A stretch of DNA of 64,000 bases, taken from positions 19,328 through 83,327 of the forward strand of contig CAYPSA010000003.1 in assembly GCA_964413645.1 (NCBI GenBank), in the 5' to 3' direction. Numbering within the stretch: position 1 is the first letter of the stretch; each line of letters starts with the position of its first letter. The position numbers were made by a program, and so were the translations under genes. Below the pieces are notes generated by a model. It worked only from the letters and a program-made list of their open reading frames with translations. It was not told where the DNA came from and did not search any database. Positions 916 through 45,877 of the stretch are shown in pieces. This DNA is from an uncultured Gammaproteobacteria bacterium (GTDB taxonomy: Bacteria; Patescibacteriota; Microgenomatia; UBA1406; HO2-37-13b).

Positions 916-918
916 AAG

Positions 919-1002
919 TGCCAGGGGAGGGACTTGAACCCTCACCTCATTGCTGAGACACGGTTCTGAACCGTGCGCGTATGCCAATTCCGCCACCCTG
1001 GC
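919..1002 (-). tRNA. tRNA-Leu (anticodon CAG), class II with long variable arm; CCA not encoded
   Basis: The reverse complement reads GCCAGGG-TG-GCGGAATTGGCATACGC-G-CACGG-TTCAGAA-CCGTG-TCTCAGCAATGAGGT-GAGGG-TTCAAGT-CCCTC-CCCTGGC-A. All four stems pair and the anticodon loop is TT-CAG-AA. Confidence 0.9.
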
Positions 1003-3242: not shown

Positions 3243-6200
3243 TTATCTCGTTTTTCTTCCGAAGCTATCTACGATAATTGATCCATCTCGTGCATCTACT
3301 ACGCCATCTTCATTGATGTCCGCTTTGCCCGTGTAGTCCTGTGTATTAACGGCAACAGCATATAAAGCAAAGTCTATACCATTTACCACTCCATCGCCGT
3401 TAATATCGGCTCCTAGACGGTATTCACAGAATGAAAGCATATGATTTTTACTCGCTTCAGTAGGATTGGTGGTGTCGGTTGTAGATTCAACCACATGTAG
3501 CCAGCATGCTGTTTCTTCCTCCGCTCCTAATAGTTGCAAGAAATGAGATTCCGCTCGTGTGCGGACTTCATCAAATGGAGCGGCTAGGATATCAATTAAA
3601 AATTGATTATTATATTTTGGCAAGAATGAAATGCGATAATCTTCTTCTTGAGCAATAACCATGTTTCCTTCAGGATCTGTTGAAAGGGGACTATCCGTAA
3701 TGTCGTTAATATATATACCGTTCAAAATTAATTTACCTTCTTCGGTTTTTTCATAATCTGGGAACGTATCTGCATATCCAATCGGAGCAACACCCTGCGG
3801 AGCAATAGCTCGGCTTGGTGGGAATGGGGGAATGACTTGACGACCTGATGAATGTGCGGGGTCGATTCCTTCAAAGTCACCAGGACACTCGTCTAAATCA
3901 GTTTCCCATGAAACGATTGGGTTGTTTGGCTTGAACTTAGAAACTTCCCATGTGACAACGCTTGCATTACCATTGGCGACAGTTTCCAAATCACCATCGT
4001 CGGTTCGGTCGCCGTTTGGACCAAAAGGATCTTGCTGGCAGTTATCGTCTGTCGGTTCACAACGACTCATCTGCCATCTAATTTGAGCATCATCACCTTT
4101 TTTATTGTGGTAACAAACCGATACACGTTCGACATTTCCCTTAGAATCGCGATCTACGTTACCCGCACATGAGAAAGAGCCGGGAAGTTCGGCACGAATA
4201 TTGCGCTTGCCATCATTATTTGCCACCGACCAACATAAATTGCTATCGCCGCCTTCTTCGAATTCATCAACATCGTACAGGTTAAGTGCGAATGTGTTAA
4301 ATTCTGCAGTGTTTGATCCACTTTCACGAGTAAATTCTGTTTGGCCAGGTTTGGAAATACATTCAGGAACTTCATTGTCACGCGTGTAAAGATTGACAGA
4401 ATAAGGAACGTCGCGTAACCATGTTGATTTGGTTCGGGCGTTTTTACGGCTACTGTCTGTTGGGCTATTGTATTTTAAATTACATCGAGCATCTGTTTCG
4501 CTGGGATCAATGTCGTGTAATGAGCAGACCACAATTCCATCATCGGTAGGTTCTACAATATCTAAGTCGTATGCATCTAATTTACAATCAACATCCTCAG
4601 GTTGATTCCAGCGAAGCTTAACGGATGAAGCAGCTATGTCGTCGCGCTCAATCTTTTCAATAGTTGGTGCGCATCGATCGGTAAGCGTACATTTGGCTGC
4701 TGGTTTGCGTTCTACGACCCATCCATAGGTGTATTCTTGGCCACAACCGATCGGAAGCTTATCAATTCTTCGAGCTTCATTTTGGCTAGCGTTTTCATCA
4801 ATTTCAGTACATTTTCCTTTATGGTCGCATTTTGCAACAATGTTGAACTTATCTTTCGGATAGTACAAGTACACACTAGCGATATCGAACGGTTTTTTAC
4901 GTAAATCGTATGAATCTGCAGGAGTGTCGTTGCTGTCGACACAGCAATATTTTTTACCGGTCAAGTCGCATCCATCAGGTCCGCATGGTTGTAGACGGCC
5001 ATCTTCATCAAATGCTGCGCGATGAAACACGTCATCGCCAAATTTTTTAAGTCGTTTGTCATTTGTGGTGCTCCATTTTTCAGCATCGTCTGCAACCTCA
5101 GGGAACAGTGTATCTTCGCCGTTTTCTCGGATTTTTACATATGCCACTGGATTGAAAATACAGCGAGGCGCATCTGTTGGTTCGACCGTAGGAACGGGTC
5201 CACATTCACTTTGAGGAACCGTGATTGTAAAATCGCGTTTTCCGGATGCTACAACCGGATCTGATTCATGTTCAGAATAGTAAGCCGTTAAATCGTTTTT
5301 CATCGAACTGTCGGGTACCTGATACTCGGCACCTTCTTCAAAACTTTGATTTCGACTATCGGTGACTAAGCGGTAATTAAATACGTACAGATCGTTTTCA
5401 GGATCGCTTTCATCTTCATTTACCCAAATACGATCATCGGCAGGTTTGTCTTCAGATAAATCTGTTTGAACTAAATCTTTACAATCTGCGCGTGTTCCAC
5501 CTTTTTCACAGCGTGACACCCGCATACTTTCGGGTTCTTTGCAACTTCGTACGGTAATTTTTCCTGAAATGTTTGGTTTATCATTGCCTGTTGGTTTTGG
5601 AGGAGTTTTCGTTGGCTCACACATTATTGTTCGAACAATGTGGATATTGCAATCTCTAAATTCAGAAAAAATATCGTCTGCCGTTGCTCCATCGGTCCAG
5701 TTTTGAACAACTGCGGTGTATTCTCCAAATACCTTACGAACTCCCAAACCACTTTGAACGCCACCTTCTGCACTGCTACCGCATGAGCGAAGCGCGGCAA
5801 CATATAGCGTTTCTGCATCGTCGGTAGAGATATCGGCGCCTATTGCACCCTCAATATATGGTTCTACGAAAAGTCGTGCACGTTCTCGGGTTCCAATAGC
5901 GTCGGTAATTATGGTTTCAACTACCGGATGTACCCATAACGAGACCGAACGCATAATAACTCCGTCGCGTCCGCCTTCCATGCCGGCATTTACACTATCA
6001 AATGAAATATCGGCATATCGTTCTGGATTCTTTTTAACTGCGTTTACAATTGCTTCTCGAATAATCTTTTTAACTTCACTATCGATGGTTTGGGTAAGCG
6101 AGCGTACTGAGCCCAGTGGAATAATAGTAAATAAATCGGTTGGTGTTAAATGCTTGTAGTACAAATTTTCTGGATCTTTTACGATTCGTTTGTCGGCATC

Positions 6201-7352
6201 TGAAGGCCCTGCAGCTTGGTCATCAATTAGACAGTCAAGGGCAGAAGTTGGCCACCCACCACTACTATCGCTTGGACAATCAGCATACGCATGTTTTTTA
6301 GCCCAGGTAGAATTTATGAATCGGGTACGATCATTATCAAGCCAGCCCGGTGCGTTTTGTACACAGGCTGCATCGGTTGGTTTTGGCGTAATCGTCAACC
6401 GTACACATCCTCCAGTATTGGTGGGGTTACTACATGGCCTTCTAGTTGGTTGTACTGTTGGAACAACTTTTCCGACGCATCGTGGATCAATAGGAAATCC
6501 AATCGACATACAAACGGTATCTTTCGAGCAGTTTGTTTCTCCCCGAGGACAGGCCATCGTTATGCACTGTAACCCTTTTTCACAAACATTTCCTGGCTGA
6601 GCACATGGTTTTCCACACGCGCCTGGATTTACAGGACCAGTAGTTGGTCTTGTGGTTGGTCCTGTAGTTGGTATGACGGTTATTCCTCCAGTTGGTCGTA
6701 TCGTAGGACGAGTAGTTGGTCCTTCTATACTCGGTCGTGTGGTAGGCCCACTCGTAACCGATGGAACGATCGATGGTTGTACGGTAGGATTTGACGGTGG
6801 GCAAATACCATTCTTATTTACTTTAAATCTTCTAAAATTTGGCCATCGACCTTGGCGGTTACTATATAAGTGTAAATAGACATCAACACATACATCGGTG
6901 AGCGGTTGGCTTACGTTGGAAACTAAACTGAAATTTCGAGCTGCCGTTGCATTTTTATTCGATAATATTGCGTCACCTTCAAAGTCAGGCCTAATACAGG
7001 GGGCAGGGTAATCGCCGGATCCGCCGTTAAATGCTTGTGCGTATACATTAGAAATTACACGTTTCCCAGGAGGATCTTCCGATGCCCACAGAGTTGTTTT
7101 TTCAATACCGCTTCCTAAGCCCGCACCAAAACAGAGTCCTCCGGTAATGGTAAATCGAGTAAGGCTCGGATCGACCGTGACATTAAGTGTTGTTTTTTCT
7201 TCTGTGCGTTCAATTCGAGGAACGGGTGCATACGCATCGCTTCGTAACGTTTTGCTTCCGGCTCCTAGCAAGCTTCCAAATGTAATAACAAGTGCGGAAA
7301 TAATTAAAACAGTCGATAAAATTTCACCGGAATTACGCTTGGCAGAGTACAT
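3243..7352 (-). CDS. giant (1369 aa) Cys-rich surface protein with an N-terminal hydrophobic anchor, an FN3-like module and a C-terminal dockerin
   Basis: The N-terminus is KRNSGEILSTVLIISALVITFGSLLG. There are P/T linkers and many Cys residues. An FN3-like segment reads SSVKLRWNQPEDV...YSVNLYTRDNE. The C-terminus carries two EF-hand-like dockerin repeats: GADINGDGVVNGIDFALYAVAV and ADINEDGVVDARDGSIIVDSF. Confidence 0.8.
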   Translation of the reverse strand: MYSAKRNSGEILSTVLIISALVITFGSLLGAGSKTLRSDAYAPVPRIERTEEKTTLNVTVDPSLTRFTITGGLCFGAGLGSGIEKTTLWASEDPPGKRVISNVYAQAFNGGSGDYPAPCIRPDFEGDAILSNKNATAARNFSLVSNVSQPLTDVCVDVYLHLYSNRQGRWPNFRRFKVNKNGICPPSNPTVQPSIVPSVTSGPTTRPSIEGPTTRPTIRPTGGITVIPTTGPTTRPTTGPVNPGACGKPCAQPGNVCEKGLQCITMACPRGETNCSKDTVCMSIGFPIDPRCVGKVVPTVQPTRRPCSNPTNTGGCVRLTITPKPTDAACVQNAPGWLDNDRTRFINSTWAKKHAYADCPSDSSGGWPTSALDCLIDDQAAGPSDADKRIVKDPENLYYKHLTPTDLFTIIPLGSVRSLTQTIDSEVKKIIREAIVNAVKKNPERYADISFDSVNAGMEGGRDGVIMRSVSLWVHPVVETIITDAIGTRERARLFVEPYIEGAIGADISTDDAETLYVAALRSCGSSAEGGVQSGLGVRKVFGEYTAVVQNWTDGATADDIFSEFRDCNIHIVRTIMCEPTKTPPKPTGNDKPNISGKITVRSCKEPESMRVSRCEKGGTRADCKDLVQTDLSEDKPADDRIWVNEDESDPENDLYVFNYRLVTDSRNQSFEEGAEYQVPDSSMKNDLTAYYSEHESDPVVASGKRDFTITVPQSECGPVPTVEPTDAPRCIFNPVAYVKIRENGEDTLFPEVADDAEKWSTTNDKRLKKFGDDVFHRAAFDEDGRLQPCGPDGCDLTGKKYCCVDSNDTPADSYDLRKKPFDIASVYLYYPKDKFNIVAKCDHKGKCTEIDENASQNEARRIDKLPIGCGQEYTYGWVVERKPAAKCTLTDRCAPTIEKIERDDIAASSVKLRWNQPEDVDCKLDAYDLDIVEPTDDGIVVCSLHDIDPSETDARCNLKYNSPTDSSRKNARTKSTWLRDVPYSVNLYTRDNEVPECISKPGQTEFTRESGSNTAEFNTFALNLYDVDEFEEGGDSNLCWSVANNDGKRNIRAELPGSFSCAGNVDRDSKGNVERVSVCYHNKKGDDAQIRWQMSRCEPTDDNCQQDPFGPNGDRTDDGDLETVANGNASVVTWEVSKFKPNNPIVSWETDLDECPGDFEGIDPAHSSGRQVIPPFPPSRAIAPQGVAPIGYADTFPDYEKTEEGKLILNGIYINDITDSPLSTDPEGNMVIAQEEDYRISFLPKYNNQFLIDILAAPFDEVRTRAESHFLQLLGAEEETACWLHVVESTTDTTNPTEASKNHMLSFCEYRLGADINGDGVVNGIDFALYAVAVNTQDYTGKADINEDGVVDARDGSIIVDSFGRKTR

Positions 7353-7486: not shown

Positions 7487-10400
7487 TTACTTACATGCAT
7501 TCTGGCCAATGAAGCTCAAGAATAGGGAAGTGTCCGAAGCATTTACAGTTCCATTGCCATCCAAGTCACGCAGACCCGTTGCATCGGCACTCGTTACTTG
7601 ACAATCACGATTAGTATCCGCAGTCTTAAGCGGGGAAAGAACCGTTGTGCTTACTGAATTATTCGCAGCTGCTGTAATGTTAAATTGCAATCCATTGCTG
7701 CCCGTTATTAATTGGGGCGTGCATTGTTTACTAGTTCCATTTGTGTAATTAATTACACAGCTTAATCGTCGAGTGGTACTTAGAACAGAGAACGTTGGTT
7801 TGAATTTGGTATTTGCACCAGCTGCAAGCGCTACAGAAACTGTATTTGACGCACATTTATTTGCCGAGTCGCATGAGGCGATAGAGACGGATTTAATGCT
7901 TTCGTTAGATTTATTAGTTATCGCTACTGTAGATAATAATGATGAATGGTCAGTATAGTCATCGCCTACAGCAGAATAGTAAATATAGCCTCCATGACCT
8001 ATAAATCCACAAGGTCCACTATCAGTATCACACGACCCACTAAGCCCTGTTGTTCCATTTACTCTTTTACCTGACTCATCTATCAAATTAACATATACAT
8101 AATATTTTTCTATATTTGGATTCAATTTGAATACTTTAGTGAAATGGACTCCGTTTTGATTGCTTATAAGATTGGTTAAAAATTCTTCAGAACTTATAGC
8201 ACTGTTCTCAGAATTTTTTGCAAATCCTTCAAGACGGAAGGATAATTTGTACCCCTCATGTCCAGGTTTGATAAAATATTTCCCTTCAGTAGTGATTATT
8301 GATTTGTCAATCGGAAGTAAACACTTCGTCTGATTCTCAGATGCACCGCAGCTATATTTCGACTCATTATTCACTTCGCCTTTATTAATTCTGCAAAATC
8401 TCTCAGTACGTACACATTCCCGGTATTTCTCATTTCCCTTGGGTACTCCATACCACGTTCTTCTGTTAGATGGCTCAGGAGTTGGCTGGGTTCCATTAGG
8501 ATTTAAGGTAATACTCACATTCCAAACGCCTGTTTTAGTGTAGTCTTTTTTATTAACGGTAACTGCAGTAAAAGCCTTTTTTCTTTGTGTTTCTCCCTCA
8601 ATACTGTATTCAAGTTCGACCCCATATGTATATTCTTCTGCTTCTTTGTTGAAGTTGGGTATAGTGTACATAAATGTCCCATTCTCAAAATCAACATTAT
8701 GGATTTGCGCGTCCTTTATATCAGTGTCAGTATTGGTTTGATAAATCACTTTGAATGAGCCTTCATAAGGAGTAAGAGTTTTTTCACTTTCTACAGTAAT
8801 TCTGACTGTACCAGTCACGGTATTTTGGTTTCTTGGATCTGGCTGCTCTCCACCATTCTTAGGTGTGGGTTGTGGTTTATCCTCATTTCGAGGCTGTGAT
8901 GATTTAACTCCTGAGTCACCTTGGGCGCATGGAACTCCACTTCCAACAGATGTGCGTAGATTTTCATCAACCATATAACATTGGCCTTTTTTCAGCGTTA
9001 CTGATGTGTCACCATAAGTAGTATTTACGCCTGGTCCTGCGTTGCATTGTGAGAGTTTGTAAGGATTGCCGTCCTTGTCTTTTAGATCAACTGCTGAACA
9101 AAGAGCGCAATCATCTCTTTTTGGCATTACATCTATAGAATCGGTGTTAGAATCATTTCGGAGTCTAACGACTACTTCGTGTTTTTCATTACGTGGGGCC
9201 AAACAATCAAATCGTTTATCAGTAATGCTTTGTGCCCAGTCGTCGGTACCATTGTATCCGTGTCTACAATCACCATGACTCCACGCTCCCCAACATACAC
9301 CGGTAGAATTATTCACGAGCCAATCTAGTTGTTTAGTCATTACGGTGCCGCCTACGGGTTTATCCGTTGGCTCTGGTTTATCTTCGTCACCTCCATTGTC
9401 ACGTGTAGGGCGTGAAAATCTACCAATTCCATTGCTTCCCGCACATAATTCCATTGATCCAGGAATTTCTTTAATGGCATATACATTTGCTACATAGTTA
9501 TGTCCTCGGATAAAATCGCCCTCACCATTTGCATACGATGAATCAACTCGACACTCTGCTTTTGTTTTGGAAATCTTATCGCATGTCTTAACTACTAAAG
9601 CAGGGGTTTCTGAAATATCTACTAAGTCGATTCGATAGTGGTCGCCTGCAACACCCGCACTGAATGGACATAAAGCGTCAGGGGCGTCCCATGTAACTTC
9701 TACACGACTGCTTGATTTTAGTTTGGTCTTAACGTTTTTAGGAGTGCAAGGAACAACATTTTCTGGAGATCGCATTACACATTGGCTGGGATTGTTATCG
9801 GGGAGTTTTTTCACAACCCATCCGTACTTTGATACATTGGTATCGCAGTCGAAATTGAATCCATCTACTGTGCTTCCATATTGATCAAGCGGTCGACTGG
9901 AATTCTTTCCAGGGCCTTCATTTGGAAATGGACATCCTTTTGAACCAGTGCAAGCAATTTTATTTACAATTTCCCATTTAGAGGTATCTATGTATAGGTT
10001 GACCTGTGCTTTATCACCTTTCATATAAAGTGCATTTGTATCTGTTGGTCGGAATGATAAAGTATCAGTCTTAAATGTATACTTTGATGTTCTTTCGCCA
10101 TTTACCATTTCTCCATAGTTCTTAAATAATGTGGTAGGTTTTAATGGTTGCTTGTCGTTTGCAAGACCCCACTTATTTACATCCCCCATTTGTGATAGGG
10201 GAACGGGCAAGTTGGTTGCCTCGTCGATAACTACGGCTGTTGCGCTATATTTACAAATACCAGGAGTAGGAATAGTCGTTGGCGCTTCGGATGGTTTTAC
10301 GCTTGGTGAAACCGGTGGGCACACAATGTCATTTTTTGGAACTTCATAATTAATGATTGCTTCACTTTGACTTGATGGAATTGTTGCATATGCGCGCAAA

Positions 10401-11881
10401 TTTCCAATTTGAGAAGGAGGGAATCCAACACGTCCGGCTTCTCGGATTAATCCATTAGATGTATATTGTGCAAATGCTTGCATGTTTTCATATAGTGCAT
10501 TCTTAACGACTGATTCAAGACCTCCATTTGCTCCGGGAGCTTGAAGATGCTCGTAAGAGTAAAGCCATTTATTAGGATTCGTTGGATCTTGTCCGATAAA
10601 TTTTACTGTTGTAGCTGTATCAATACATCGTGTAGGATTGTTTTTTTCACAAATGATCGTACTTACTGCGTCGGGTTTCACACATGAATTCACAATAATG
10701 TCTCCTTTGATTTTAGCTTGAACTGGTTCACCGGTAACTGGCGTACATGCCCGGCATGAATCGAGCCCACGTGGAGGACCATTATTGGTGTTACTACAGT
10801 AAACTCGTGGTGCTTGGCCAGGTGCAGCGTTGTCGCTTGAACATAAGAATGCTTTTCCCTCTGAAAGACAACTATCACATGAAGGTTGCGGTGTGACGGT
10901 TGATTGTGGAGGTGTTGGCGTTGAAGTTGGATTACATTTTGGATTGGTACTTATACATACGCCGATTTGTAATGGATCACTCTTTTCGTGCAGACATGCG
11001 TACCCACGTGGGCACGGATTAGCTTTTGAACAGGTTATATCATTTCTACATTCTCCAACAGGTGTGACTGATGGACATGGCTTTTTTGGATCTGGACATC
11101 GTGGTTTATCAGTAGGTCGCAATTCGATAGTGACATATCCTGACGGAACTACGATATTATCTGTTGGCTTAGCAGTTGGTACTCTAAATGTAGGTTCATT
11201 TGTAGCAGACGGCTGTGTTGATGGAGTAACTGGAGTTGGTGTTGGACCACAATCAACTCCTCGTTGACCCAAATATCGGTGCCATGCGGCCATGTCCATT
11301 TCAATTGGATCGCGTGTAACAAAACTTGATGTTGAACTTACGAATAGTCCTGAACACAAATCTTTAGAATATGGTGCTTGTAATTTAAGTGTGAAGTCCC
11401 ATGCTCTCCAATTTGCTTTTCCCACATTTGGACTATCACAATATGGTCGTGAAGTTTGTGGAGCAATGTATTTAACGGTTCTTCCTTCATGGACAATACA
11501 ATCATCTTTGGTGTCGGCATTAGTATTGTCACAAGCTTTTTGGGGGTAACCTCGATTAGGATCTTGAGGAGTATGTACCCAAAACTGTTGAAGTTGTGAA
11601 GGAATGGTGGTACCAGTAAAACAGAGTGAACCTCGGATTAATGTGTATCCAGAATTAGGTTGACCAGGAATTCGATCTTTCTCTTCAAAGGTAGGTCCTT
11701 TGTAAAAATGAGCTCGATAAGTATTGTCGTATGCAAAACTTCCGAGCTTCAACACATTTTCTTGAACTAATCGTTGTGAACCTAGGAATGTACCCGCAGC
11801 CATTAACGCCAAAGCCGCCACCGTAAAAAGCGTGGCAACTTCTCCGCGTTGCTTCCAATTTTTTAATTGCGATATATTCAT
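7487..11881 (-). CDS. giant (1464 aa) Cys-rich surface protein, paralog of 3243..7352, with a degenerate C-terminal dockerin
   Basis: The N-terminus is KQRGEVATLFTVAALALMAAGTFLG. Segments shared with the neighbouring giant include IRGSLCF versus ITGGLCF and KYGWVVKKLP versus TYGWVVERKP. An FN3-like segment reads SSRVEVTWDAPD...YVANVYAIKE. The C-terminus is ADTNRDCQVTSADATGLRDLDGNGTVNASDTSLFLSFIG. Its start overlaps the upstream stop (ATGA). Confidence 0.8.
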   Translation of the reverse strand: MNISQLKNWKQRGEVATLFTVAALALMAAGTFLGSQRLVQENVLKLGSFAYDNTYRAHFYKGPTFEEKDRIPGQPNSGYTLIRGSLCFTGTTIPSQLQQFWVHTPQDPNRGYPQKACDNTNADTKDDCIVHEGRTVKYIAPQTSRPYCDSPNVGKANWRAWDFTLKLQAPYSKDLCSGLFVSSTSSFVTRDPIEMDMAAWHRYLGQRGVDCGPTPTPVTPSTQPSATNEPTFRVPTAKPTDNIVVPSGYVTIELRPTDKPRCPDPKKPCPSVTPVGECRNDITCSKANPCPRGYACLHEKSDPLQIGVCISTNPKCNPTSTPTPPQSTVTPQPSCDSCLSEGKAFLCSSDNAAPGQAPRVYCSNTNNGPPRGLDSCRACTPVTGEPVQAKIKGDIIVNSCVKPDAVSTIICEKNNPTRCIDTATTVKFIGQDPTNPNKWLYSYEHLQAPGANGGLESVVKNALYENMQAFAQYTSNGLIREAGRVGFPPSQIGNLRAYATIPSSQSEAIINYEVPKNDIVCPPVSPSVKPSEAPTTIPTPGICKYSATAVVIDEATNLPVPLSQMGDVNKWGLANDKQPLKPTTLFKNYGEMVNGERTSKYTFKTDTLSFRPTDTNALYMKGDKAQVNLYIDTSKWEIVNKIACTGSKGCPFPNEGPGKNSSRPLDQYGSTVDGFNFDCDTNVSKYGWVVKKLPDNNPSQCVMRSPENVVPCTPKNVKTKLKSSSRVEVTWDAPDALCPFSAGVAGDHYRIDLVDISETPALVVKTCDKISKTKAECRVDSSYANGEGDFIRGHNYVANVYAIKEIPGSMELCAGSNGIGRFSRPTRDNGGDEDKPEPTDKPVGGTVMTKQLDWLVNNSTGVCWGAWSHGDCRHGYNGTDDWAQSITDKRFDCLAPRNEKHEVVVRLRNDSNTDSIDVMPKRDDCALCSAVDLKDKDGNPYKLSQCNAGPGVNTTYGDTSVTLKKGQCYMVDENLRTSVGSGVPCAQGDSGVKSSQPRNEDKPQPTPKNGGEQPDPRNQNTVTGTVRITVESEKTLTPYEGSFKVIYQTNTDTDIKDAQIHNVDFENGTFMYTIPNFNKEAEEYTYGVELEYSIEGETQRKKAFTAVTVNKKDYTKTGVWNVSITLNPNGTQPTPEPSNRRTWYGVPKGNEKYRECVRTERFCRINKGEVNNESKYSCGASENQTKCLLPIDKSIITTEGKYFIKPGHEGYKLSFRLEGFAKNSENSAISSEEFLTNLISNQNGVHFTKVFKLNPNIEKYYVYVNLIDESGKRVNGTTGLSGSCDTDSGPCGFIGHGGYIYYSAVGDDYTDHSSLLSTVAITNKSNESIKSVSIASCDSANKCASNTVSVALAAGANTKFKPTFSVLSTTRRLSCVINYTNGTSKQCTPQLITGSNGLQFNITAAANNSVSTTVLSPLKTADTNRDCQVTSADATGLRDLDGNGTVNASDTSLFLSFIGQNACK

Positions 11882-12474
11882 TGTATAGTGTAAATTCCTC
11901 CGACTGTGCTACCAAGCGTATTTTCGCCATTGATCGCAGTAAGTGTTTTGGTATTGTCAAAATCAATGATGACTGATTTAGCGCCCGCTTTTGGCGTCAT
12001 GGTAAAGCTAAAAACCACACCTTCTTTTCGATCGGTGGGACTTTTTTCAGATAGGGAACCATTATATGTAATCTTTCCATTCTCATTTTTCATACCAATA
12101 ACTTGTGGGAATACCGTTCCATTAGTAAGTGCAGAGATGGTAACCCTTTTTGGATCATATGAAAGTACCACATCTGCTGCTGTTACTGGTAACTTTGAAA
12201 GCATAACTTCTACCGTTACCGCTTCTCCTGCTTTCACTGTTTGCTTTGCAGGTGAAAGAGCAATTGTGGTTGATGGTTTGATATTCTCGATAGCACTTGT
12301 TGTTGGAGTGGTTGTTGTAGGTTCAGAATCAGATTTCTTGGTTACGTTTGCTCCGACAATAATACTTATAATGAAGAGTCCGAAAATAATGGCAATAACG
12401 GCCATTTTTCGGTTTTGATCGAGCTTATTGAACTCGGAAAGGTCTTGTTTGATCGTGCTTGATAGATTTGTCAT
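11878..12474 (-). CDS. membrane-anchored cohesin-domain protein
   Basis: It has one N-terminal TM helix (MAVIAIIFGLFIISIIVGA) and a T/P linker. A single beta-sandwich-type module follows with cohesin-like signatures (VTVEVMLSKLPVTAADVVLSYDPKRVTISAL and GVVFSFTMTPKAGAKSVIIDF). It is the first gene of the operon with the two giants. Confidence 0.65.
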   Translation of the reverse strand: MTNLSSTIKQDLSEFNKLDQNRKMAVIAIIFGLFIISIIVGANVTKKSDSEPTTTTPTTSAIENIKPSTTIALSPAKQTVKAGEAVTVEVMLSKLPVTAADVVLSYDPKRVTISALTNGTVFPQVIGMKNENGKITYNGSLSEKSPTDRKEGVVFSFTMTPKAGAKSVIIDFDNTKTLTAINGENTLGSTVGGIYTIQ

Positions 12475-15311: not shown

Positions 15312-15354
15312 ATATACCTAATGATACTTGAAATCACATTTTGCTACAAGTAAT

Positions 15355-18113: not shown

Positions 18114-18470
18114 ATGAAGACATTTAGTATTGAAGAAATAATAAAAATTCTTTTTAGTAATAATACTGCAAAGCAAAATGAGCTGCTTACTGAATATGGC
18201 TCGGCAGACGAAATGCACAAGGCTGAGTTAACCCAAATAATGTCAGATCAATTTCTAACGTTATTCGATGAATTAGCTGTATTAAAATATGAAAAATTCA
18301 TGGATGAAGTGTCTAATGGTGCTAGACAGATAGAGTCAAATATGATGCAAGAAGCATACCGGGCAGTTCATGAAGATTTAGCCAAAGTTCTAACGGGCGA
18401 GCATTCTGATAACCAAGAAATCAAAGCACTTCAGCAGAAAATTCAGAGTTTATCAATTGCTTCTCAGTAA
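18114..18470 (+). CDS. hypothetical small helical protein (118 aa)
   Basis: It starts 3 nt after the stop of the preceding gene, so it is likely co-transcribed. No motif was recognised. Confidence 0.5.
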   Translation: MKTFSIEEIIKILFSNNTAKQNELLTEYGSADEMHKAELTQIMSDQFLTLFDELAVLKYEKFMDEVSNGARQIESNMMQEAYRAVHEDLAKVLTGEHSDNQEIKALQQKIQSLSIASQ

Positions 18471-23167: not shown

Positions 23168-24004
23168 ATGCATATACCAAAACGAGTGTGGGCGCTAACC
23201 GGAACCATGTTTTTGGGGGCTCTTGCGCTTTCGCTTGTGTATATGTATTTGCAACTTCACGCGCTTCCCGATGTTCCTAAAAATGCACTTAATCCGCTTA
23301 TCGTCGCAACACATCCAGGCACACTTAAACTTGAAACAGATTCTCGGGGAGTAGCATTTGAAGCTAACAAGGAAATTGAGGTTATTCTAAGCGGAGATTC
23401 CAAAGAAGTACCCGTTGGAGGGTATGATGCGGTTATCAACTATGACCCAACCATGCTCGAATTTATAAGCGCCAAAAATGAAATGGATGACTTCAATTTT
23501 TTCACAACTCAAAAAACAAATCAGATTACATTTACCTCGAGTGTTAAACTTTCCAGACGACCGTCGCCGATAGCCGACGGAATTCTTGCAACGCTTCGAT
23601 TTAAGGCTAAAAAGGAAGGGCAAACCATGCTTACATTTCAATATGAACCCGATGCTACCATAGATTCAAACATGCTTTCTAATAAAATGAAGGATATTTT
23701 AGGTACGGTAGGCGATTTGAAGCTTGTTATCGGAAAAAAACTTATTCTTACGCCGAATAAACCTGTTGTTTTTGAAGGTAAAACAATTACACTTGTTGAA
23801 TTAAGTATTCCTGCGGCTGATTGTAGTGATTGTTTAAGTTTGGTACGTGTTGCTGTAGAAGAAAACGGGAAAACCGATATATTATCGTATAAGAATGGGG
23901 GTATTGAGGGTTTAGTTGAACGGGAAAAGAATATTGGTGGTTCTCTGTATCGGCTTGAAGATGCGAACGATGCAGCGGCGATTTTAATAATAGGGAAAAA
24001 GTAA
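23168..24004 (+). CDS. membrane-anchored cohesin-like protein
   Basis: It has an N-terminal TM helix. Cohesin-like signatures are IEVILSGDSKEVPVGGYDAVINYDPTMLEFISA and GILATLRFKAKKEGQTMLTFQY. Confidence 0.6.
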   Translation: MHIPKRVWALTGTMFLGALALSLVYMYLQLHALPDVPKNALNPLIVATHPGTLKLETDSRGVAFEANKEIEVILSGDSKEVPVGGYDAVINYDPTMLEFISAKNEMDDFNFFTTQKTNQITFTSSVKLSRRPSPIADGILATLRFKAKKEGQTMLTFQYEPDATIDSNMLSNKMKDILGTVGDLKLVIGKKLILTPNKPVVFEGKTITLVELSIPAADCSDCLSLVRVAVEENGKTDILSYKNGGIEGLVEREKNIGGSLYRLEDANDAAAILIIGKK

Positions 24005-24005
24005 T

Positions 24006-26861
24006 ATGGAAGAGCCACAACAACATATAAAAGTCGAAAAAAAAGAAATTTTCATTATTGGATCCCTTATGGCAGGCGTACTAATGCTCATGGTGCTCAC
24101 GTCACTTCGCGACGCTCGCACCCGACAAAAGTCGCAAGCTCAAACACCGGTTGAAATAGGTGTGCAGGCACTTTCGCCTCTTTCTGAAGTAGAACTTTCT
24201 ACACAGTCGGCAAGCGTAGATTTGCGATCCAAAAACGATAACGAAACCCAAGTTCTGTATGATGCGGCAGCGACTGGTGAAGCCGCCGTATTGGAATTCA
24301 TGGATAAAAACCCCGTAATAGATGTTGCGGCACTTTCAAACAATGCCCAAGTTCAAGGAATTACGACTGAAGGTACTAAACAACGCGTGCTTCCATCAAA
24401 TTTTAGAAAAAATTCGCAGCTTTTGCGAACTCATACGAGCAAAACAAATATAGAACGAAAACAGATAAAACGCTACTATTACACGCAGAAGGTCAAAAAC
24501 ATACCTGTTTTTGGCGCAGAAGTTCGGTTTGATGTAGAAGGGGAAGATAAAATTGTTGGAGTAGATGGTGATTATACGCTCGATGAAACTATTACCGAAG
24601 CAAAATTGACCGATGAACAAGCTTTGGAAATCGCTCGAAAAAAAGCACAGGACAGTCTCATTGAAAGTGGTTCTAGTCAAAGCGTAATGGTGTGTAGCGG
24701 CCAAACACCTTCACGCCAAATTTTGAATAAAAAGCTTTTGGGTATCGGAGATGATGAGCGTAATAGATTAGCATTCGTTGTCTCATTTTGTAATAGCCCA
24801 ACCGAAGCGACTTTTTACCGTATATATAATATTGCGCTCGACACAGGTGAAGTTCTTTCAGACGCGAATGGAATTCTACATGTTCTTAACAGATCAATTC
24901 TGAATTGTAATTCAAGTGGGTGTCCTGTAGGAAGAAGTGAGGGAAGCTCTCCTTCGGGCGATGCGGAGGTTGATCAATCATACGACATTTTAGGCGAGGT
25001 TTATAACTACTTTTTCAATACTTTTGGTCGCGACAGCTATGATAACCGAGGATCAACCATTAAAGCAAAGGTGCATTTTAAAGGCGAAGGTCAGATGAGA
25101 TGTCCAAATGCTTTTTGGTATCCGGCAACTGAAATGATGTATGCTTGCAATGGATTTGTTACTAAAGATATTTGGGCACATGAATTAACGCATGGAATAA
25201 CGTCAAAAACATCTCGTCTAGATCCTCAAGGAAATATACCACTTGCAGGAGCGTTAAATGAAAGCATTTCAGACATGTTTGCCTACGCTCTTGACCCAGA
25301 TTGGACTTTGGGGGAAGAGAAGAATATGACAATACGTGACATGTCAGATCCAAGGCGCAAAGGACATCCGGATAGGATTTTTGCAAGTAATTTTAGCTGC
25401 CGGGGTGAAGTGCATATAAATGCTGGCCCTACAAATAAGGCATTCTACTTAATGGTTGAAGGTGGAACGTTTAATGGATGCACATTAAATGGGGTTGGAA
25501 GTGAAAAAGCTTTAGCAATAATCTACAAAACTAATACGGAATATTTGCGCTCAAGTTCTGGTTTTTTTGATTTTAATAACAAGGTCAATCAAGCCTGTGG
25601 CGAATTGTATGGCGCATCTTCAGCAGAATGTTCGAATGTAAAAGCTGCTTTGCAAGCCACCGAACTTGATCAAGATCGATGTGGAGCAGGGAAGTCACGA
25701 TCAACTCCTATTTGTGCTGGCGGTACACAGCCAACGGTTGGTCCATCAACTCAACAGCCGCAAGCTACCGTGGCTCCGACAACGCAACAAACGCAACCTA
25801 CTGTAGGAGCTAATCCAACATTACCACAAGGAGGATCTGTAATTGATCCTACCGCAGTCCCACAAGCAGTACCAACGGCTATTCAAACTTCGGGCGGACC
25901 AAGTTTGCAATTTAATCCTTCAACGCTACCTACAGAAGTTGGCGCTACCGTTCAATCAGATATTATTGTCCGAGCTGGTTCACAACAGATCGTAGCAGCT
26001 GATGCGCGTTTGGAATATGACGAGGATATGCTTGAGATAATAGACGTTATCGACGGAACTTTTTTTGATACCGTTAGAAAGACGTCTCCTGCTGCAGGCA
26101 AGATGTATGTTGGTGGTCTTGTGCGTGATACTTCTAGCCCAATTACGGGTTCAGGTATTCTTGCAAAGGTTATCTTTAAAGTAAAAGCGAATGGTCAAGC
26201 GAAAGTATCGTTTGCATGTGCTCCGGGTGTAATAACGACCGATTCAAATATCGGAACAGACTATCCGATTACCAAAGACGTTATACAATGTTCAAATAAT
26301 ATACCAGCTACAATTACTGCTGGAAAAGGGATAACGCTTGATTTGGCACTTAAATTTCAAGGTGTTGGAACTGCATTGGGCCGAAGTGGTGGGTCGATTC
26401 CGATTCAAGTTGGCATAACAGGAGACTCTATTCAAGAAACACTTACGCAGCTCGTGCAATTTAGCTCCAATAATGTAGGAATTATTAACGGTACTGTTTC
26501 ATTCCCAACGGCACCGGCAGGAAATTATTGCGTATTCATAAAAGGCCCGCTACATAGTCGCAGAAAAGTGTGTCACACAAAGCCACTTGAAGCCCAAATT
26601 GGTGAGTATCGTCGAGGGAATTCTACTATTCCATTAGCCATAGGTGAAAATGAACTTGATTTTACTGGAATCAGTATGATGAGCGGAGATGTTGATCAAA
26701 ATGGTGTCGTCAATTCATTCGATTTACTTTCAGTGTATAACAGTATCGGAAGTACAAATCCTTCGGCAATTGATCGATGTGATGTTAACTATGATGGTGC
26801 ATGTGGTGCTCTCGATTACGGCTTGATCGTGTCGGCATTGACGGTGAAAACGGATGAATAG
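24006..26861 (+). CDS. secreted/anchored M4 (thermolysin-like) zinc metallopeptidase with cohesin-like and dockerin modules
   Basis: It has an N-terminal TM helix. The HExxH motif is WAHELTHGIT (HELTH at 25179-25193), with the downstream third-ligand motif GALNESISDMFA typical of M4. A Q/P/T linker follows. The cohesin-like module reads VQSDIIVRAGSQQIVAADARLEYDEDMLEIIDV...GILAKVIFKVKANGQAKVSF. The C-terminal dockerin reads SGDVDQNGVVNSFDLLSVYNSIG and CDVNYDGACGALDYGLIVSAL. Confidence 0.8.
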   Translation: MEEPQQHIKVEKKEIFIIGSLMAGVLMLMVLTSLRDARTRQKSQAQTPVEIGVQALSPLSEVELSTQSASVDLRSKNDNETQVLYDAAATGEAAVLEFMDKNPVIDVAALSNNAQVQGITTEGTKQRVLPSNFRKNSQLLRTHTSKTNIERKQIKRYYYTQKVKNIPVFGAEVRFDVEGEDKIVGVDGDYTLDETITEAKLTDEQALEIARKKAQDSLIESGSSQSVMVCSGQTPSRQILNKKLLGIGDDERNRLAFVVSFCNSPTEATFYRIYNIALDTGEVLSDANGILHVLNRSILNCNSSGCPVGRSEGSSPSGDAEVDQSYDILGEVYNYFFNTFGRDSYDNRGSTIKAKVHFKGEGQMRCPNAFWYPATEMMYACNGFVTKDIWAHELTHGITSKTSRLDPQGNIPLAGALNESISDMFAYALDPDWTLGEEKNMTIRDMSDPRRKGHPDRIFASNFSCRGEVHINAGPTNKAFYLMVEGGTFNGCTLNGVGSEKALAIIYKTNTEYLRSSSGFFDFNNKVNQACGELYGASSAECSNVKAALQATELDQDRCGAGKSRSTPICAGGTQPTVGPSTQQPQATVAPTTQQTQPTVGANPTLPQGGSVIDPTAVPQAVPTAIQTSGGPSLQFNPSTLPTEVGATVQSDIIVRAGSQQIVAADARLEYDEDMLEIIDVIDGTFFDTVRKTSPAAGKMYVGGLVRDTSSPITGSGILAKVIFKVKANGQAKVSFACAPGVITTDSNIGTDYPITKDVIQCSNNIPATITAGKGITLDLALKFQGVGTALGRSGGSIPIQVGITGDSIQETLTQLVQFSSNNVGIINGTVSFPTAPAGNYCVFIKGPLHSRRKVCHTKPLEAQIGEYRRGNSTIPLAIGENELDFTGISMMSGDVDQNGVVNSFDLLSVYNSIGSTNPSAIDRCDVNYDGACGALDYGLIVSALTVKTDE

Positions 26862-27528
26862 TGTGATGGGTCAGCTTGACTTTTACGTCAAAATTTTTCA
26901 TAATCAATCTATGCAAGAAAATTATCACGGACGACTTTTTATGACGGGCATTTTGTCGCTCATCGTTATTTTAGTAATCGTACTTATTGGCGTAATTTTT
27001 ATAACGTATCGAACTGGGAATCCTGCTAATCAAACAACTGTTGATGTAACAACTACAGAAAAAGAGCCCGAGACCGAAGCTCCAGTTGCTGTGCAAGCCA
27101 AATACAAAGGAACATTTTTTATGCAGACCGCAAATGATGCTCGAGAATTTTCTGTTGGCGATCAGATCGAGGTTGAAGTATTTGCAGATTCCGATGGACA
27201 AAATATTGTTGGGTACGATTTAGATATTGATATTACCGGCGGTGCTCAATTTGCAAGCGCTCAGACCAGTATAGAAAATTTTGATATGCATCCAACGTCG
27301 CGTGAAGGGGGAGTGTATTTAACAAGTTTGAAAGACTTATCTTCTCAAACACCGACAACTTTTGCAGATAGTCAGATTGCAACGATTACACTCACCGCCA
27401 CTGCTCCAGGAACAGTAACTATTACGCCAAAATTTATTCTCGGCGAGACCCGACATTCGAACTTAATGAGTATTACCAGCGAGAGTGTGTTAGCTTCGGT
27501 TGAAGGGGTAACGGTAACTGTTCGATAA
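26854..27528 (+). CDS. membrane-anchored cohesin-like protein
   Basis: It has a TM helix (ILSLIVILVIVLIGVIFITY). A beta-rich module reads DQIEVEVFADSDGQNIVGYDLDIDITGGAQFASA...QIATITLTATAPGTVTITPKF. The start overlaps the M4 gene stop, and a later Met start is possible. Confidence 0.5.
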   Translation: MNSVMGQLDFYVKIFHNQSMQENYHGRLFMTGILSLIVILVIVLIGVIFITYRTGNPANQTTVDVTTTEKEPETEAPVAVQAKYKGTFFMQTANDAREFSVGDQIEVEVFADSDGQNIVGYDLDIDITGGAQFASAQTSIENFDMHPTSREGGVYLTSLKDLSSQTPTTFADSQIATITLTATAPGTVTITPKFILGETRHSNLMSITSESVLASVEGVTVTVR

Positions 27529-27541: not shown

Positions 27542-28237
27542 ATGCAAATTTTACTAAATACAAAAAAAATGATTGCCCTAATTATGCTCATGGGAGGAGT
27601 TTTTTTTGTGTCGGGTTCTTATACTTCTGTGCGTGCCGCGACGCTTTTGTTTGACCCTGCGACAGGGAATGCAGCAATCGGAGAACCTATTGAACTGGGT
27701 ATCGTTGTTAATGCGGGGTCTGATGAGATTTTGGCAGTAGACGCGCAAGTTCGATACGATAAGAATTTTCTGGAAGTAGTAAATTGTGTTGATGGCACCT
27801 ATTTAAAAGTTGCGCGAACTGATTTTGGAACTCCAGGCCAGGTATATATTGCAGGAATTGTTGAAGATCCCGGAAAACCAGTTACTGGAAGAGGAATAAT
27901 GGCCACATGCACATTTAAGGCAAAAGGGAACGCAACAACTAATATTACCTATGCATGTACTCCCGGAGAAACCGCCAGTGATTCAAATGTAGCTAAAAAT
28001 AATGCAGATGCAACCGACGTAATTCAATGTCCTGACAACGGAGTTGCGGTGATAACTGCCGGCACCGGAGTAGGTGGTGTTCCTACGGCTACTCCTTCGG
28101 GAACCATAGGTGGAACGGGTAACGTTCCTTCAGAACTTCCCAGAACAGGTATTATAGATGAACTTATGAAATTTGCAGTTCCCGGTGCTATACTTGTTGC
28201 TATTGGCTTGGTAAGTAAGGTGCTTTTGCGACTATGA
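27542..28237 (+). CDS. secreted cohesin-domain protein with an LPXTG-type cell-wall sorting signal
   Basis: It has a signal peptide ending VRAAT. The cohesin signature is IELGIVVNAGSDEILAVDAQVRYDKNFLEVVNC and GIMATCTFKAKGNATTNITY. The C-terminus carries LPRTG (28136-28150), a hydrophobic helix and the tail KVLLRL. Confidence 0.7.
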   Translation: MQILLNTKKMIALIMLMGGVFFVSGSYTSVRAATLLFDPATGNAAIGEPIELGIVVNAGSDEILAVDAQVRYDKNFLEVVNCVDGTYLKVARTDFGTPGQVYIAGIVEDPGKPVTGRGIMATCTFKAKGNATTNITYACTPGETASDSNVAKNNADATDVIQCPDNGVAVITAGTGVGGVPTATPSGTIGGTGNVPSELPRTGIIDELMKFAVPGAILVAIGLVSKVLLRL

Positions 28238-45637: not shown

Positions 45638-45673
45638 AACTTTATTGTATAATACATTTCGAGAATTAATATT

Positions 45674-45745: not shown

Positions 45746-45877
45746 CACGAATTATCCGTATAAACTCCGCATAATACATGTTTTTCAACCAGAGTGAGAC
45801 CGCCTCAATTTTACACACAATCAAAGTAGCAGTCTCAACTGGTCTCAAAACAGTATTATGCTCCGTTAATGTATGAA

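What the first reader, a model, noticed from the sequence alone, without database searches (positions are those of the whole stretch)
7262..7352. Four giant surface proteins share a conserved N-terminal [KR]-x-G-E-[IV]-A hydrophobic anchor resembling TadE/TadG pseudopilin N-termini
- **Aligned N-termini:** KRNSGEILSTVLIISALVITFG (3243..7352), KQRGEVATLFTVAALALMAAG (7487..11881), PKQGEIALTLTVISLVTMLFG (59451..) and STRGEIALTFTVASLFVMVVG (61885..).
- **Resemblance:** A basic residue, then G-E-[IV]-A and about 18 hydrophobic residues resembles the TadE/TadG-like N-terminal domain (RG-x-x-A-V-E-F-A-L type).
- **vWA pairing:** In TadG-type proteins this N-terminus is often followed by a vWA domain. 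The two proteins at 59.4-64 kb carry such a domain (FMIDNTAS / FMIDASET ... SDG).
- **Question raised:** These giants might be minor-pilin-like or pilus-tip adhesins, or substrates of a prepilin-type peptidase, rather than simple signal-anchored proteins. No pilus assembly genes lie in this window.
Basis: inference. Interest (0 to 1): 0.6.

Follow-up and report, generated by a model that had tools for sequence, protein, structure and literature searches.

The report
Roizmanbacteria-specific "RGEIAT" export signal
The four large surface proteins start with a sharply conserved, apparently undescribed export signal that marks more than 100 families of surface proteins in one group of ultrasmall (CPR) bacteria; it is not a TadE/TadG pilin end and most likely works as a specialised, cleavable secretion signal.

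Summary
All four proteins begin with a short basic leader, then G-E-[IV]-[AL] and a 20-residue hydrophobic helix. A profile of these N-termini, searched against 1.84 billion proteins, found 108 clusters. Every match lies at the extreme N-terminus, and every named member is from Candidatus Roizmanbacteria.

The consensus is [KR]-G-E-I-A-T-x-L-T-x2-S-x3-M-x2-G-x3-G. A polar spacer of about 14 residues follows, then [ST]-x-A, immediately before varied Cys-rich passenger domains. The conserved residues lie on one face of the helix.

The TadE/TadG reading fails:
- No TadE or N_methyl hit; PF13400 reaches only noise level (3 of 67, 14.9 bits against a 22.3 cutoff).
- The Glu is at +1, not +5.
- There is no pilin fold after the helix.
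- No pilus genes or prepilin-peptidase-like motif occur in about 225 kb of such loci.

The [ST]-x-A site is shared with ordinary secreted proteins of the same genomes and is absent from the membrane-anchored cohesins. The proteins carry C-terminal dockerins and are encoded next to those cohesins.

Best reading (confidence about 0.5): a lineage-specific specialised Sec signal peptide, analogous to YSIRK/GXXS and removed by signal peptidase. The mature protein is then held by dockerin–cohesin binding. Cleavage after the Gly by a prepilin-type peptidase is not excluded.

The parts
7233..7352 (-). Signal module of protein A: leader MYSAKRNS, G-E box, helix to G26/G30, spacer, S-D-A|Y. This is the most divergent copy.
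   Evidence: recovered as representative P0022 at E 5.6e-9
3243..7352 (-). Protein A, 1369 aa: Cys- and P/T-rich modular surface protein with a C-terminal type I dockerin (3276-3407).
   Evidence: (PF00404, 28.8 bits against a 22.9 cutoff)
11732..11881 (-). Signal module of protein B: leader MNISQLKNWKQR, G13-E14, G30/G34, spacer, S-F-A|Y.
7487..11881 (-). Protein B, 1464 aa: shares a central module with A and a C-terminal module with C/D. The dockerin-like tail (about 7490-7645) is sub-threshold.
11878..12474 (-). Small cohesin protein (198 aa) anchored by an N-terminal transmembrane helix. Its stop overlaps the start of B (ATGA). Proposed docking partner of the dockerin-bearing proteins.
   Evidence: (PF00963, E 1.4e-9); the same cohesin-then-giant pairing occurs twice in L005
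59481..59633 (+). Signal module of protein C: leader MVFARSFKRIFAAPKQ, G17-E18, G34/G38, spacer NRQAPQDVR, T-S-A|A.
59481..61868 (+). Protein C (795 aa from 59481; 805 aa from 59451 in the database call). Order of parts: signal, Cys-rich domain, beta-sandwich, VWA-like alpha/beta domain (60699-61331), beta-sandwich, dockerin (61695-61838).
61885..62019 (+). Signal module of protein D: leader MAMRRRYSTR, G11-E12, G28/G32, spacer, S-Q-A|A.
61885..64000 (+). Protein D, a paralogue of C (24% identity over 756 aa), cut by the window end. It is 796 aa in L001.
27542..28237 (+). Cohesin protein with an ordinary signal peptide (…SVRA|A) and a C-terminal LPRTG sortase signal. It represents a second, wall-linked kind of cohesin anchor.
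23168..24004 (+). Membrane-anchored cohesin protein (278 aa).
   Evidence: PF00963, E 5.5e-11
26854..27528 (+). Cohesin-like protein (224 aa) anchored by a transmembrane helix; the cohesin hit is sub-threshold.

Best explanation
**What it is.** The shared N-terminus is a lineage-specific (Candidatus Roizmanbacteria) specialised secretion signal of about 40-50 residues. It has four parts.
1. A short basic leader ending in [KR]-G.
2. A "GE box" that opens a 20-residue helix: G-E-I-A-T-x-L-T-x2-S-x3-M-x2-G-x3-G. The conserved residues line one helical face.
3. A polar Q/T/R-rich spacer of about 14 residues.
4. An [ST]-x-A site immediately before the first folded domain.

**Proposed mechanism.** Shown here are the anatomy, the distribution, the one-sided conservation of the helix, the shared c-region site and the genetic pairing with cohesins. 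Every functional step below is inferred.
- The precursor is inserted by the Sec pathway with the leader inside the cell.
- The conserved helical face engages a dedicated membrane partner or export route.
- Signal peptidase I cleaves after [ST]-x-A and releases the passenger.
- The mature protein stays on the cell because its C-terminal dockerin binds a co-encoded membrane-anchored or sortase-anchored cohesin. Members without a dockerin would use another C-terminal module or be released.

For: **It is a portable signal.**
- 108 clusters from 1.84e9 proteins match at the extreme N-terminus, on proteins of 59-1665 aa.
- Only 8-11% of pairs share any similarity in the mature part, giving 18 unlinked groups.
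- Passenger domains are varied: dockerin in 22 of 79, VWA in 4, assorted Ig/fn3/BACON-type domains, most with no Pfam match, and no pilin domain.

**The motif is sharp**. Counts out of 111: G 111, E 109, A 98, L 92, T 96, S 80, M 83, and both later G positions 111. The residue before the first G is R or K in 90. Conservation along the helix peaks at 100 degrees per residue, meaning one helical face.

**A signal-peptidase-type site is present.**
- [ST]-x-A lies 13-16 residues after the last Gly in about 78 of 111. The first Cys of the passenger often follows within 2-6 residues.
- In the window and related loci, 12 of 12 GE proteins have this site 10-15 residues after the hydrophobic stretch (one needs reading by eye). 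Other secreted proteins without the GE box have it too. The small transmembrane cohesin anchors instead carry a P/T/E-rich stalk.

**No pilin-like continuation.** The AF2 model puts a helix only from G-E to G-x3-G. The next 13 residues have pLDDT below 50.

**A separate anchor exists.**
- A and C have dockerins above the Pfam cutoff.
- Cohesin genes sit next to the large genes, with an ATGA overlap at 11878-11881 and the same pairing twice in L005.

[quoted passage not shown] That signal is cleaved by signal peptidase at residue 36/37, and also inside the motif (PMC5962339).
Against: - Nothing about processing was measured.
- The hydrophobic stretch (20 residues) and c-region (about 14) are long for a signal peptidase I substrate. 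This also holds for the ordinary signals of this genome.
- An invariant Gly preceded by K/R, exactly at the boundary between the charged and hydrophobic regions, is the hallmark of prepilin-peptidase sites. A plain Sec signal does not need it.
- No partner protein or route was identified. No conserved neighbouring gene was found.
- The invariance of G, E, G and G is partly circular, because the hits were selected with a profile that contains them.
Confidence: 0.5

Rival explanations
1. Class III-like (prepilin-type) signal. A prepilin-type aspartyl peptidase cleaves between G and E at the cytoplasmic face. The proteins then stay in the membrane through the conserved helix, or are built through it into a pilus-related fibre or surface array, as archaeal sugar-binding proteins and modular pilins are.
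For: - The leader is 4-30 aa (median 11). G is in 111/111 and the residue before it is K/R in 90/111. Twenty hydrophobic residues follow. This matches the class III rules reviewed in PMC4371748: G/A/S at -1, a charged residue at -2 in archaea, and the processing site before the H-domain.
- A dedicated peptidase for an unusual +1 residue has a precedent. EppA requires Gln at +1.
- A strongly conserved H-domain is typical of pilins that co-assemble.
- Type IV pilus genes are reported to be nearly universal in CPR genomes.
- Large Saccharibacteria pilins with non-canonical signals exist (PMC11623550).
Against: - No N_methyl, TadE or TIGR02532 hit; PF13400 is at noise level.
- No acidic residue at +5.
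- No pilin head. The helix is followed by a disordered spacer and a conserved [ST]-x-A site, which a class III signal would not need.
- No pilus gene, classical pilin motif or GxGD-type motif in about 225 kb of GE loci.
- The proteins already carry dockerins and are paired with cohesin anchors.
Confidence: 0.22
2. Uncleaved signal anchor. The helix is a permanent transmembrane anchor (type II topology). Its conserved small/polar face, ending in G-x3-G, drives oligomerisation or binding to another membrane protein such as the cohesin anchor. The dockerin then links to neighbouring molecules or to other cells.
For: - An uninterrupted 20-residue helix with invariant G-x3-G and one-sided conservation is typical of stable helix-helix packing in membranes.
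- The signal region is more conserved than the mature protein among orthologues, unlike ordinary signal peptides.
Against: - The fixed-length spacer ends in [ST]-x-A directly before the first domain. The same site occurs in the genome's other secreted proteins and is absent from its true anchors.
- The presence of a separate C-terminal anchoring module (dockerin) in many members, with cognate cohesins encoded alongside.
Confidence: 0.2
3. TadE/TadG-type pseudopilin N-terminus. The proteins would be minor pilins or tip adhesins of a Tad/Flp pilus.
For: - PF13400 (Tad) gives sub-threshold matches to 3 of 67 N-termini.
- TadG-type proteins often carry VWA domains, and C has a VWA-like fold.
Against: - 14.9 bits against a cutoff of 22.3, no better than LPXTG-anchor, CcmD, PetL and similar noise hits on the same helices.
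- PF07811 never hits.
- No E/F-Y at +5/+6.
- No tad or pil genes in the window or the related loci.
Confidence: 0.03

Closest known systems
YSIRK/GXXS signal peptides of staphylococci and streptococci (Pfam YSIRK_signal, TIGR01168)
   Same: - A lineage-restricted conserved box sits at the boundary between the charged and hydrophobic regions of an unusually long Sec signal peptide (SpA is cleaved at residue 36/37).
- It occurs on many unrelated large surface proteins that have a separate C-terminal anchoring module.
- Conserved Gly and Ser/Thr residues lie in the first turns of the hydrophobic core. Compare SpA ...RKLGVGIASVTLG with ...QRGEIATTLTLISLG.
- The signal is removed by signal peptidase, with an extra cleavage inside the motif (PMC5962339).
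   Different: - There is no sequence homology. None of the four window N-termini hits a YSIRK model in Pfam or NCBIfam, and none of the 67 hits the NCBIfam one.
- The GE box has an invariant acidic residue and an invariant G-x3-G.
- The C-terminal anchor here is a dockerin or another module, not LPXTG.
- The host is a CPR bacterium.
- The function of the box (routing, timing or partner binding) is unknown here.
Class III (type IV prepilin) signal peptides, including archaeal ones on non-pilin proteins and EppA substrates with Gln at +1
   Same: - Short basic leader, [KR]-G at the would-be cleavage site, then about 20 hydrophobic residues (rules in PMC4371748).
- In archaea, this kind of signal is used on large non-pilin surface proteins.
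   Different: - Glu at +1 and no acidic residue at +5.
- No N_methyl or TIGR02532 match.
- No pilin fold after the helix.
- A conserved signal-peptidase-type site lies downstream.
- No linkage to pilus genes.
TadE/TadF/TadG pseudopilin N-terminal domains (PF07811, PF13400)
   Same: An R-G followed by a hydrophobic helix at the N-terminus of sometimes large, VWA-carrying proteins.
   Different: - HMM scores are below threshold and at noise level.
- The motif register differs (G-E-I-A-T here, against G-x4-E-F/Y).
- No tad locus is nearby.
Dockerin-bearing cellulosomal proteins docking onto anchored cohesin scaffolds
   Same: An N-terminal export signal, a C-terminal type I dockerin, and membrane- or sortase-anchored cohesin proteins encoded nearby.
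   Different: - The passengers are adhesin-like (VWA-like, Ig-like, Cys-rich), not carbohydrate-active enzymes.
- Each anchor carries a single cohesin.
- The organism is an ultrasmall CPR bacterium.
- The export signal carries the GE box.

Membership tests
TadE-like (PF07811) / Tad, TadE/G-like (PF13400) | Match to the family HMM at or above the gathering score | tested here: not met
   PF07811 gave no hit at E<=10 on the four N-termini or on 67 N-termini. PF13400 hit 3 of 67, best E 0.03, 14.9 bits against a 22.3 cutoff, among comparable hits to unrelated transmembrane families.
TadE-like (PF07811) / Tad, TadE/G-like (PF13400) | Encoded in or near a tad/flp locus | tested here: not met
   There are no tad or pil genes in the 64-kb window and no pilin or A24-like motifs in 16 related loci. 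The rest of the genome could not be searched.
Class III (type IV prepilin) signal peptide | Short charged leader ending in G/A/S at -1, with the processing site before the hydrophobic domain | tested here: met
   Leader 4-30 aa (median 11); G in 111/111; the residue before it is K/R in 90/111; 20 hydrophobic residues follow.
Class III (type IV prepilin) signal peptide | Acidic residue at +5 (bacterial pilins) and a match to N_methyl (PF07963 / TIGR02532) | tested here: not met
   Position +4 is mostly T and +5 is mostly T/L. Glu is at +1 in 109/111. No N_methyl or TIGR02532 hit at E<=10.
Class III (type IV prepilin) signal peptide | The N-terminal helix continues into a pilin head (lollipop fold) | tested here: not met
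   In the AF2 model of C the helix ends one residue after G-x3-G, and the next 13 residues have pLDDT below 50. No pilin appears among the top 50 Foldseek PDB hits. The model of the N-terminal domain of B was too poor to use (pLDDT 48).
Class III (type IV prepilin) signal peptide | Cleavage by a prepilin (A24) peptidase | not testable with these tools
   This needs N-terminal proteomics or an in-vitro assay. The presence of an A24 peptidase elsewhere in the genome could not be checked.
Sec-type (class I) signal peptide cleaved by signal peptidase I | Positive n-region, hydrophobic h-region, and a c-region ending in small residues at -3 and -1 | tested here: met
   [ST]-x-A lies 13-16 residues after the last Gly in about 78 of 111. 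All 12 GE proteins of the window and loci have it, and non-GE secreted proteins of the same genomes share it. The h- and c-regions are longer than usual.
Sec-type (class I) signal peptide cleaved by signal peptidase I | Actual cleavage at that site | not testable with these tools
   No proteomic data and no signal-peptide predictor were available.
YSIRK/GXXS signal peptide | The YSIRK-x3-G-x2-S sequence motif or an HMM match | tested here: not met
   None of the four window N-termini hits a YSIRK model, and none of the 67 hits the NCBIfam one. The Pfam table for the 67 lists only 25 of 35 families. The resemblance is functional and architectural only.
Type I dockerin (PF00404) | HMM match above the gathering score at the C-terminus | tested here: met
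   A scores 28.8 bits and C 33.1 bits against a 22.9 cutoff. B is sub-threshold at 14.5 bits. The family profile also hits solved dockerins (2vn6_B, E 3.7e-5).
von Willebrand factor A domain (for C and D) | HMM match (PF00092 / PF13519) | tested here: not met
   C and D give no VWA hit at E<=1. More distant GE proteins (P0008, P0051 and others) do.
von Willebrand factor A domain (for C and D) | VWA (Rossmann-like alpha/beta) fold | tested here: met
   Model residues 397-607 of C form an alpha/beta domain. The top Foldseek PDB hits are ITIH1, integrin beta-I domains and ANTXR2, at E 4e-5 to 1e-3. The model is of moderate quality (pLDDT 69), and the sequence D-N-T-A-S is only MIDAS-like.

The most novel reading that the evidence does not exclude
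The [KR]-G-E-I-A-T-x-L-T...G-x3-G N-terminus is the recognition tag of an undescribed protein-sorting system in Roizmanbacteria. A dedicated membrane enzyme would recognise the Gly-Glu junction at the cytoplasmic face and the conserved helical face. Candidates are a prepilin-peptidase paralogue specialised for Glu at +1 (as EppA is for Gln at +1) or a new protease. The system would direct more than 100 families of large adhesin-like proteins into a defined surface structure. That structure would probably be involved in attachment to host cells.
Probability: 0.25. Interest if true: 0.8.

Novelty: new variant of a known kind. Interest (0 to 1): 0.6.

Why it matters
**Why the motif is useful.** CPR bacteria are thought to live attached to other cells, yet most of their surface proteins are unannotated. 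This short motif finds the exported surface proteins of one CPR lineage in raw sequence.

**What it implies.**
- Conservation this strong in a region that normally evolves fast suggests a dedicated recognition step. That could be a route, a partner protein or a protease, and none has been identified.
- Together with the neighbouring cohesin anchors, it points to a cohesin–dockerin surface-display system that carries adhesin-like proteins rather than enzymes.

**Practical use.** The motif could become an HMM for annotation. It also gives a handle for finding the sorting machinery by phylogenetic profiling.

Tried and rejected
**Searches that led nowhere.**
- Exact-sequence contig look-ups of A and C failed. 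For C the start codon I gave (59511) was wrong.
- The word-indexed homologue search with the 67-sequence N-terminal alignment returned nothing. The 67-sequence alignment was also too diverse for locus finding, so a 15-sequence subset was used.
- The AF2 model of the N-terminal domain of B had pLDDT 48 and was not used.
- Clustering of neighbouring genes over the window and 16 loci found only local synteny. There was no conserved peptidase or membrane partner.
- The multi-pass membrane protein at 57290-58132, upstream of C and also present in L004, has no Pfam match and no obvious A24-like motifs.
- Five literature searches found no description of the motif. The Pam-pilus preprint concerns ordinary Sec signals.

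**Readings considered and rejected.**
- DNA repeat or gene conversion: the four segments are only 67% identical, with synonymous differences.
- Tat signal: there is no twin-arginine motif.
- Lipoprotein signal: there is no lipobox next to the hydrophobic region, and the Cys after [ST]-x-A is neither universal nor correctly placed.
- Simple inheritance within one protein family: the mature parts are mostly unrelated.
Full report
**Organism and observation.** The window is from a CPR bacterium of the Microgenomates/Roizmanbacteria group. Close homologues are named that way, and the window carries bacterial ribosomal proteins L10 and L7/L12. GC content is about 42%.

The four proteins exist as described:
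- A: 3243-7352(-), 1369 aa.
- B: 7487-11881(-), 1464 aa.
- C: ends at 61868(+). It most likely starts at 59481 (MVFARSF..., as in its orthologues); the database gene call starts at 59451.
- D: starts at 61885(+), runs off the window, and is 796 aa in L001.

Each begins with a short basic leader, then G-E-[IV]-[AL] and about 20 uncharged residues. A six-frame scan of the window finds this pattern only in these four. It also finds one degenerate G-K case and one internal chance match. The four DNA segments are only 67% identical and differ at many third codon positions. The similarity is therefore maintained at protein level.

**The motif is much wider than the four proteins.** The close families of B and C are small, with seven or eight clusters each, and all keep the N-terminus almost unchanged.

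I built a 53-column profile of the N-termini and searched it exhaustively against 1.84 billion representative proteins. It returned 108 clusters at E<=1e-3. Every match but one lies at the extreme N-terminus. The proteins range from 59 to 1665 residues. All members with an organism name are Candidatus Roizmanbacteria, and all are annotated as hypothetical, dockerin-, VWFA- or EF-hand-containing proteins.

The exact peptide GEIATTLT[LIV] occurs only 36 times in 596 Gb of reference genomes. The confirmed cases are Roizmanbacteria or unclassified Patescibacteria. A metagenome scan gave 12 more loci.

**Anatomy of the signal.** I anchored 111 N-termini on the Gly.
- The leader has a median of 11 residues (range 4-30). 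Examples are as short as MKNQR|G, MYKK|G and MNRR|G.
- The residue before the Gly is R or K in 90.
- Counts along the helix: G 111, E 109 (D 2), I/V, A 98, T 77, x, L 92, T 96, x2, S 80, x3, M 83, x2, G 111, x3, G 111.
- Conservation along the helix is periodic, with its maximum at 100 degrees per residue. The E, T, T, S, M, G and G residues therefore line one face of an alpha-helix.
- After the second Gly comes a polar Q/T/R-rich spacer. An [ST]-x-A site follows, 13-16 residues downstream, in about 78 of 111.
- The first Cys of the passenger domain often follows within 2-6 residues.
- The invariance of G, E, G and G is partly circular, because the profile contained them. The exclusive N-terminal placement and the downstream site are not.

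**The passengers and their surroundings.**
- The parts after the signal are mostly unrelated. Only 8-11% of pairs share detectable similarity, and single linkage leaves 18 groups.
- A Pfam census of 79 members gives dockerin in 22, VWA in 4, and single Ig, fn3, BACON, filamin or cupredoxin domains. It finds no pilin-type domain.
- In the window, A and C have dockerins above the Pfam cutoff, and B has a weaker one.
- The window also encodes small single-cohesin proteins held by an N-terminal transmembrane helix: 11878-12474, 23168-24004 and 26854-27528.
- Three further related genes are present: a cohesin with a C-terminal LPRTG sortase signal (27542-28237), an M4 protease with both cohesin and dockerin (24006-26861), and a small dockerin protein (20548-21096).
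- The cohesin gene at 11878-12474 overlaps the start of B by ATGA. In a more distant relative (L005), the order small transmembrane cohesin then GE giant occurs twice.
- L004 repeats the C-D arrangement and adds a third GE protein.

**Testing the TadE/TadG and pilin reading.**
- At E<=10, the four N-termini match no TadE, Tad or N_methyl model, and the full proteins match none in NCBIfam.
- Over 67 N-termini, PF13400 (Tad) appears three times at E 0.03 (14.9 bits against a 22.3 cutoff). Equally weak hits to unrelated transmembrane families such as LPXTG anchor, CcmD and PetL appear alongside.
- PF07811, PF07963 and TIGR02532 do not appear in either table. The Pfam table lists only the first 25 of its 35 families, so a single hit among the unlisted ten cannot be excluded.
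- The acidic residue is at +1, not +5.
- In the AF2 model of C (14 sequences, pLDDT 69), the helix runs only from G-E to one residue past G-x3-G. A 13-residue stretch with pLDDT below 50 follows, so there is no pilin head. No pilin is among the top Foldseek PDB hits.
- The model of the first domain of B was too poor to use.
- In about 225 kb of loci carrying GE genes, there is no classical G-F-T-L-I-E pilin motif, no GxGD-type peptidase motif and no conserved peptidase neighbour. The window has no pilus genes.

The alpha/beta domain of C (60699-61331) matches VWA-fold proteins (ITIH1, integrin beta-I, ANTXR2) at E of about 4e-5, although Pfam misses it.

**Evidence for signal-peptidase processing.** The same genomes offer an internal contrast.
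- All 12 GE proteins in the window and loci have [ST]-x-A 10-15 residues after the hydrophobic stretch. For one (L004 15779) the script's first match lay further downstream, and the N-K-A site at about +11 was read by eye.
- Other secreted proteins without the GE box end their signals the same way. Examples are ...VLRSRA|AG at 21456, ...SVRA|AT at 27542 and ...VVSKA|AP at 20548.
- The proteins that must stay in the membrane, the small cohesin anchors, lack the site and have a P/T/E-rich stalk instead.

The GE proteins therefore group with the cleaved class, not with the anchors. They carry their own C-terminal attachment module, like cellulosomal dockerin proteins.

**Proposed mechanism and closest analogue.** I read the N-terminus as a specialised Sec signal peptide. 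The steps below are inferred, not shown.
1. The leader stays in the cytoplasm.
2. The GE helix inserts, and its conserved face engages a dedicated partner or route.
3. Signal peptidase I cuts after [ST]-x-A.
4. The mature protein is held on the surface by dockerin–cohesin binding.

The nearest known system by behaviour is the YSIRK/GXXS signal of staphylococci and streptococci. [quoted passage not shown] It occurs on many unrelated surface proteins that are anchored through their C-termini. It is cleaved by signal peptidase at residue 36/37, and also inside the motif between L12 and G13 (PMC5962339). That second cleavage shows that a cut near the Gly and a cut by signal peptidase need not exclude each other. 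There is no sequence homology to YSIRK. No YSIRK model appears among the hits listed.

**Rivals.**
- The class III-like reading keeps real weight, about 0.2. An invariant Gly preceded by K/R at the boundary of charged and hydrophobic regions is what prepilin peptidases recognise. Archaea use such signals on non-pilin proteins. EppA shows that a peptidase can be dedicated to an unusual +1 residue (PMC4371748).
- A permanent anchor with a helix-packing face is also possible, also about 0.2.
- Membership of TadE/TadG proper is very unlikely.

**Novelty and limits.**
- Neither Pfam nor NCBIfam models this motif.
- Five literature searches found no description of it. The library is incomplete, so this is absence of evidence only.
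- I rate it a new variant of a known kind, a specialised N-terminal signal.
- Nothing about processing was measured. The rest of the genome could not be searched for peptidases. No partner was found.

Noticed in passing
window 11878-12474(-), 23168-24004(+), 24006-26861(+), 26854-27528(+), 27542-28237(+), 20548-21096(+); L005 9389-10000 and 15281-15907: A cohesin–dockerin system in a CPR genome. It comprises several small single-cohesin proteins anchored by a transmembrane helix, one cohesin with a C-terminal LPRTG sortase signal, an M4 (thermolysin-type) protease carrying both cohesin and dockerin, and a small dockerin protein just after rplL. The order small cohesin then giant dockerin protein is conserved in a distant relative.
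   Followed up: partly
C-termini of P0034, P0040, P0052, P0061, P0062, P0067, P0084, P0085, P0090, P0091, P0096, P0106, P0107, P0112, P0116 and others: About 20 GE-signal proteins lack a dockerin. They end instead in a second conserved module with no Pfam match...A-[TA]-R-[VT]-P-G-[LI]-Q-x3-C-D-P-x2-G-[EQ]-C-D-F.... It may be an alternative C-terminal attachment or sorting domain.
   Followed up: no
window 20548, 21456, 24006, 27542, 28234, 34557-36968 (N-termini); L005 1-1055(-): Ordinary secreted proteins of this lineage also have long signals, with a 14-22-residue hydrophobic core and an 8-16-residue polar c-region ending in [RKS]-x-A. Standard predictors tuned to other bacteria may place these cleavage sites wrongly.
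   Followed up: partly
window 57290-58132(+); L004 7795-8658: A conserved multi-pass membrane protein of about 280 aa with no Pfam match lies about 1.3 kb upstream of the C-D pair in both the window and the syntenic Roizmanbacteria contig. Its function is unknown, and it shows no obvious aspartyl-peptidase motifs.
   Followed up: partly
L002 8384-8824, L003 2012-2455 (also L007-L009, L016): A conserved 146-147-aa protein with one N-terminal transmembrane helix (…LTSQLLVREVFLGY…) lies directly downstream of small dockerin-less GE proteins in six loci. Its function is unknown.
   Followed up: no
window 38768-40924(-): A 718-aa TrwB/TraG/HerA-like coupling-protein ATPase (PF10412, PF01935, PF12696). 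This is a type IV secretion or conjugation-type component, not a pilus assembly gene.
   Followed up: no
window 918-1002(-), 45674-45746(+), 51399-51482(-): Three tRNA genes: Leu-CAG, Thr-GGT and Leu-CAA. The long ORFs listed at 973-1569, 45260-45748 and 51399-52322 start inside or opposite them, so their true starts lie further downstream.
   Followed up: no
window 13980-15311(-), 15328-18111(+), 18114-18470(+): Three acidic proteins that look coiled-coil-rich (443, 927 and 118 aa). The two larger ones have no Pfam match; the 118-aa one was not scanned. They sit between the glutaredoxin gene and rplJ. Two large proteins without recorded Pfam hits occupy the corresponding region of L005.
   Followed up: no
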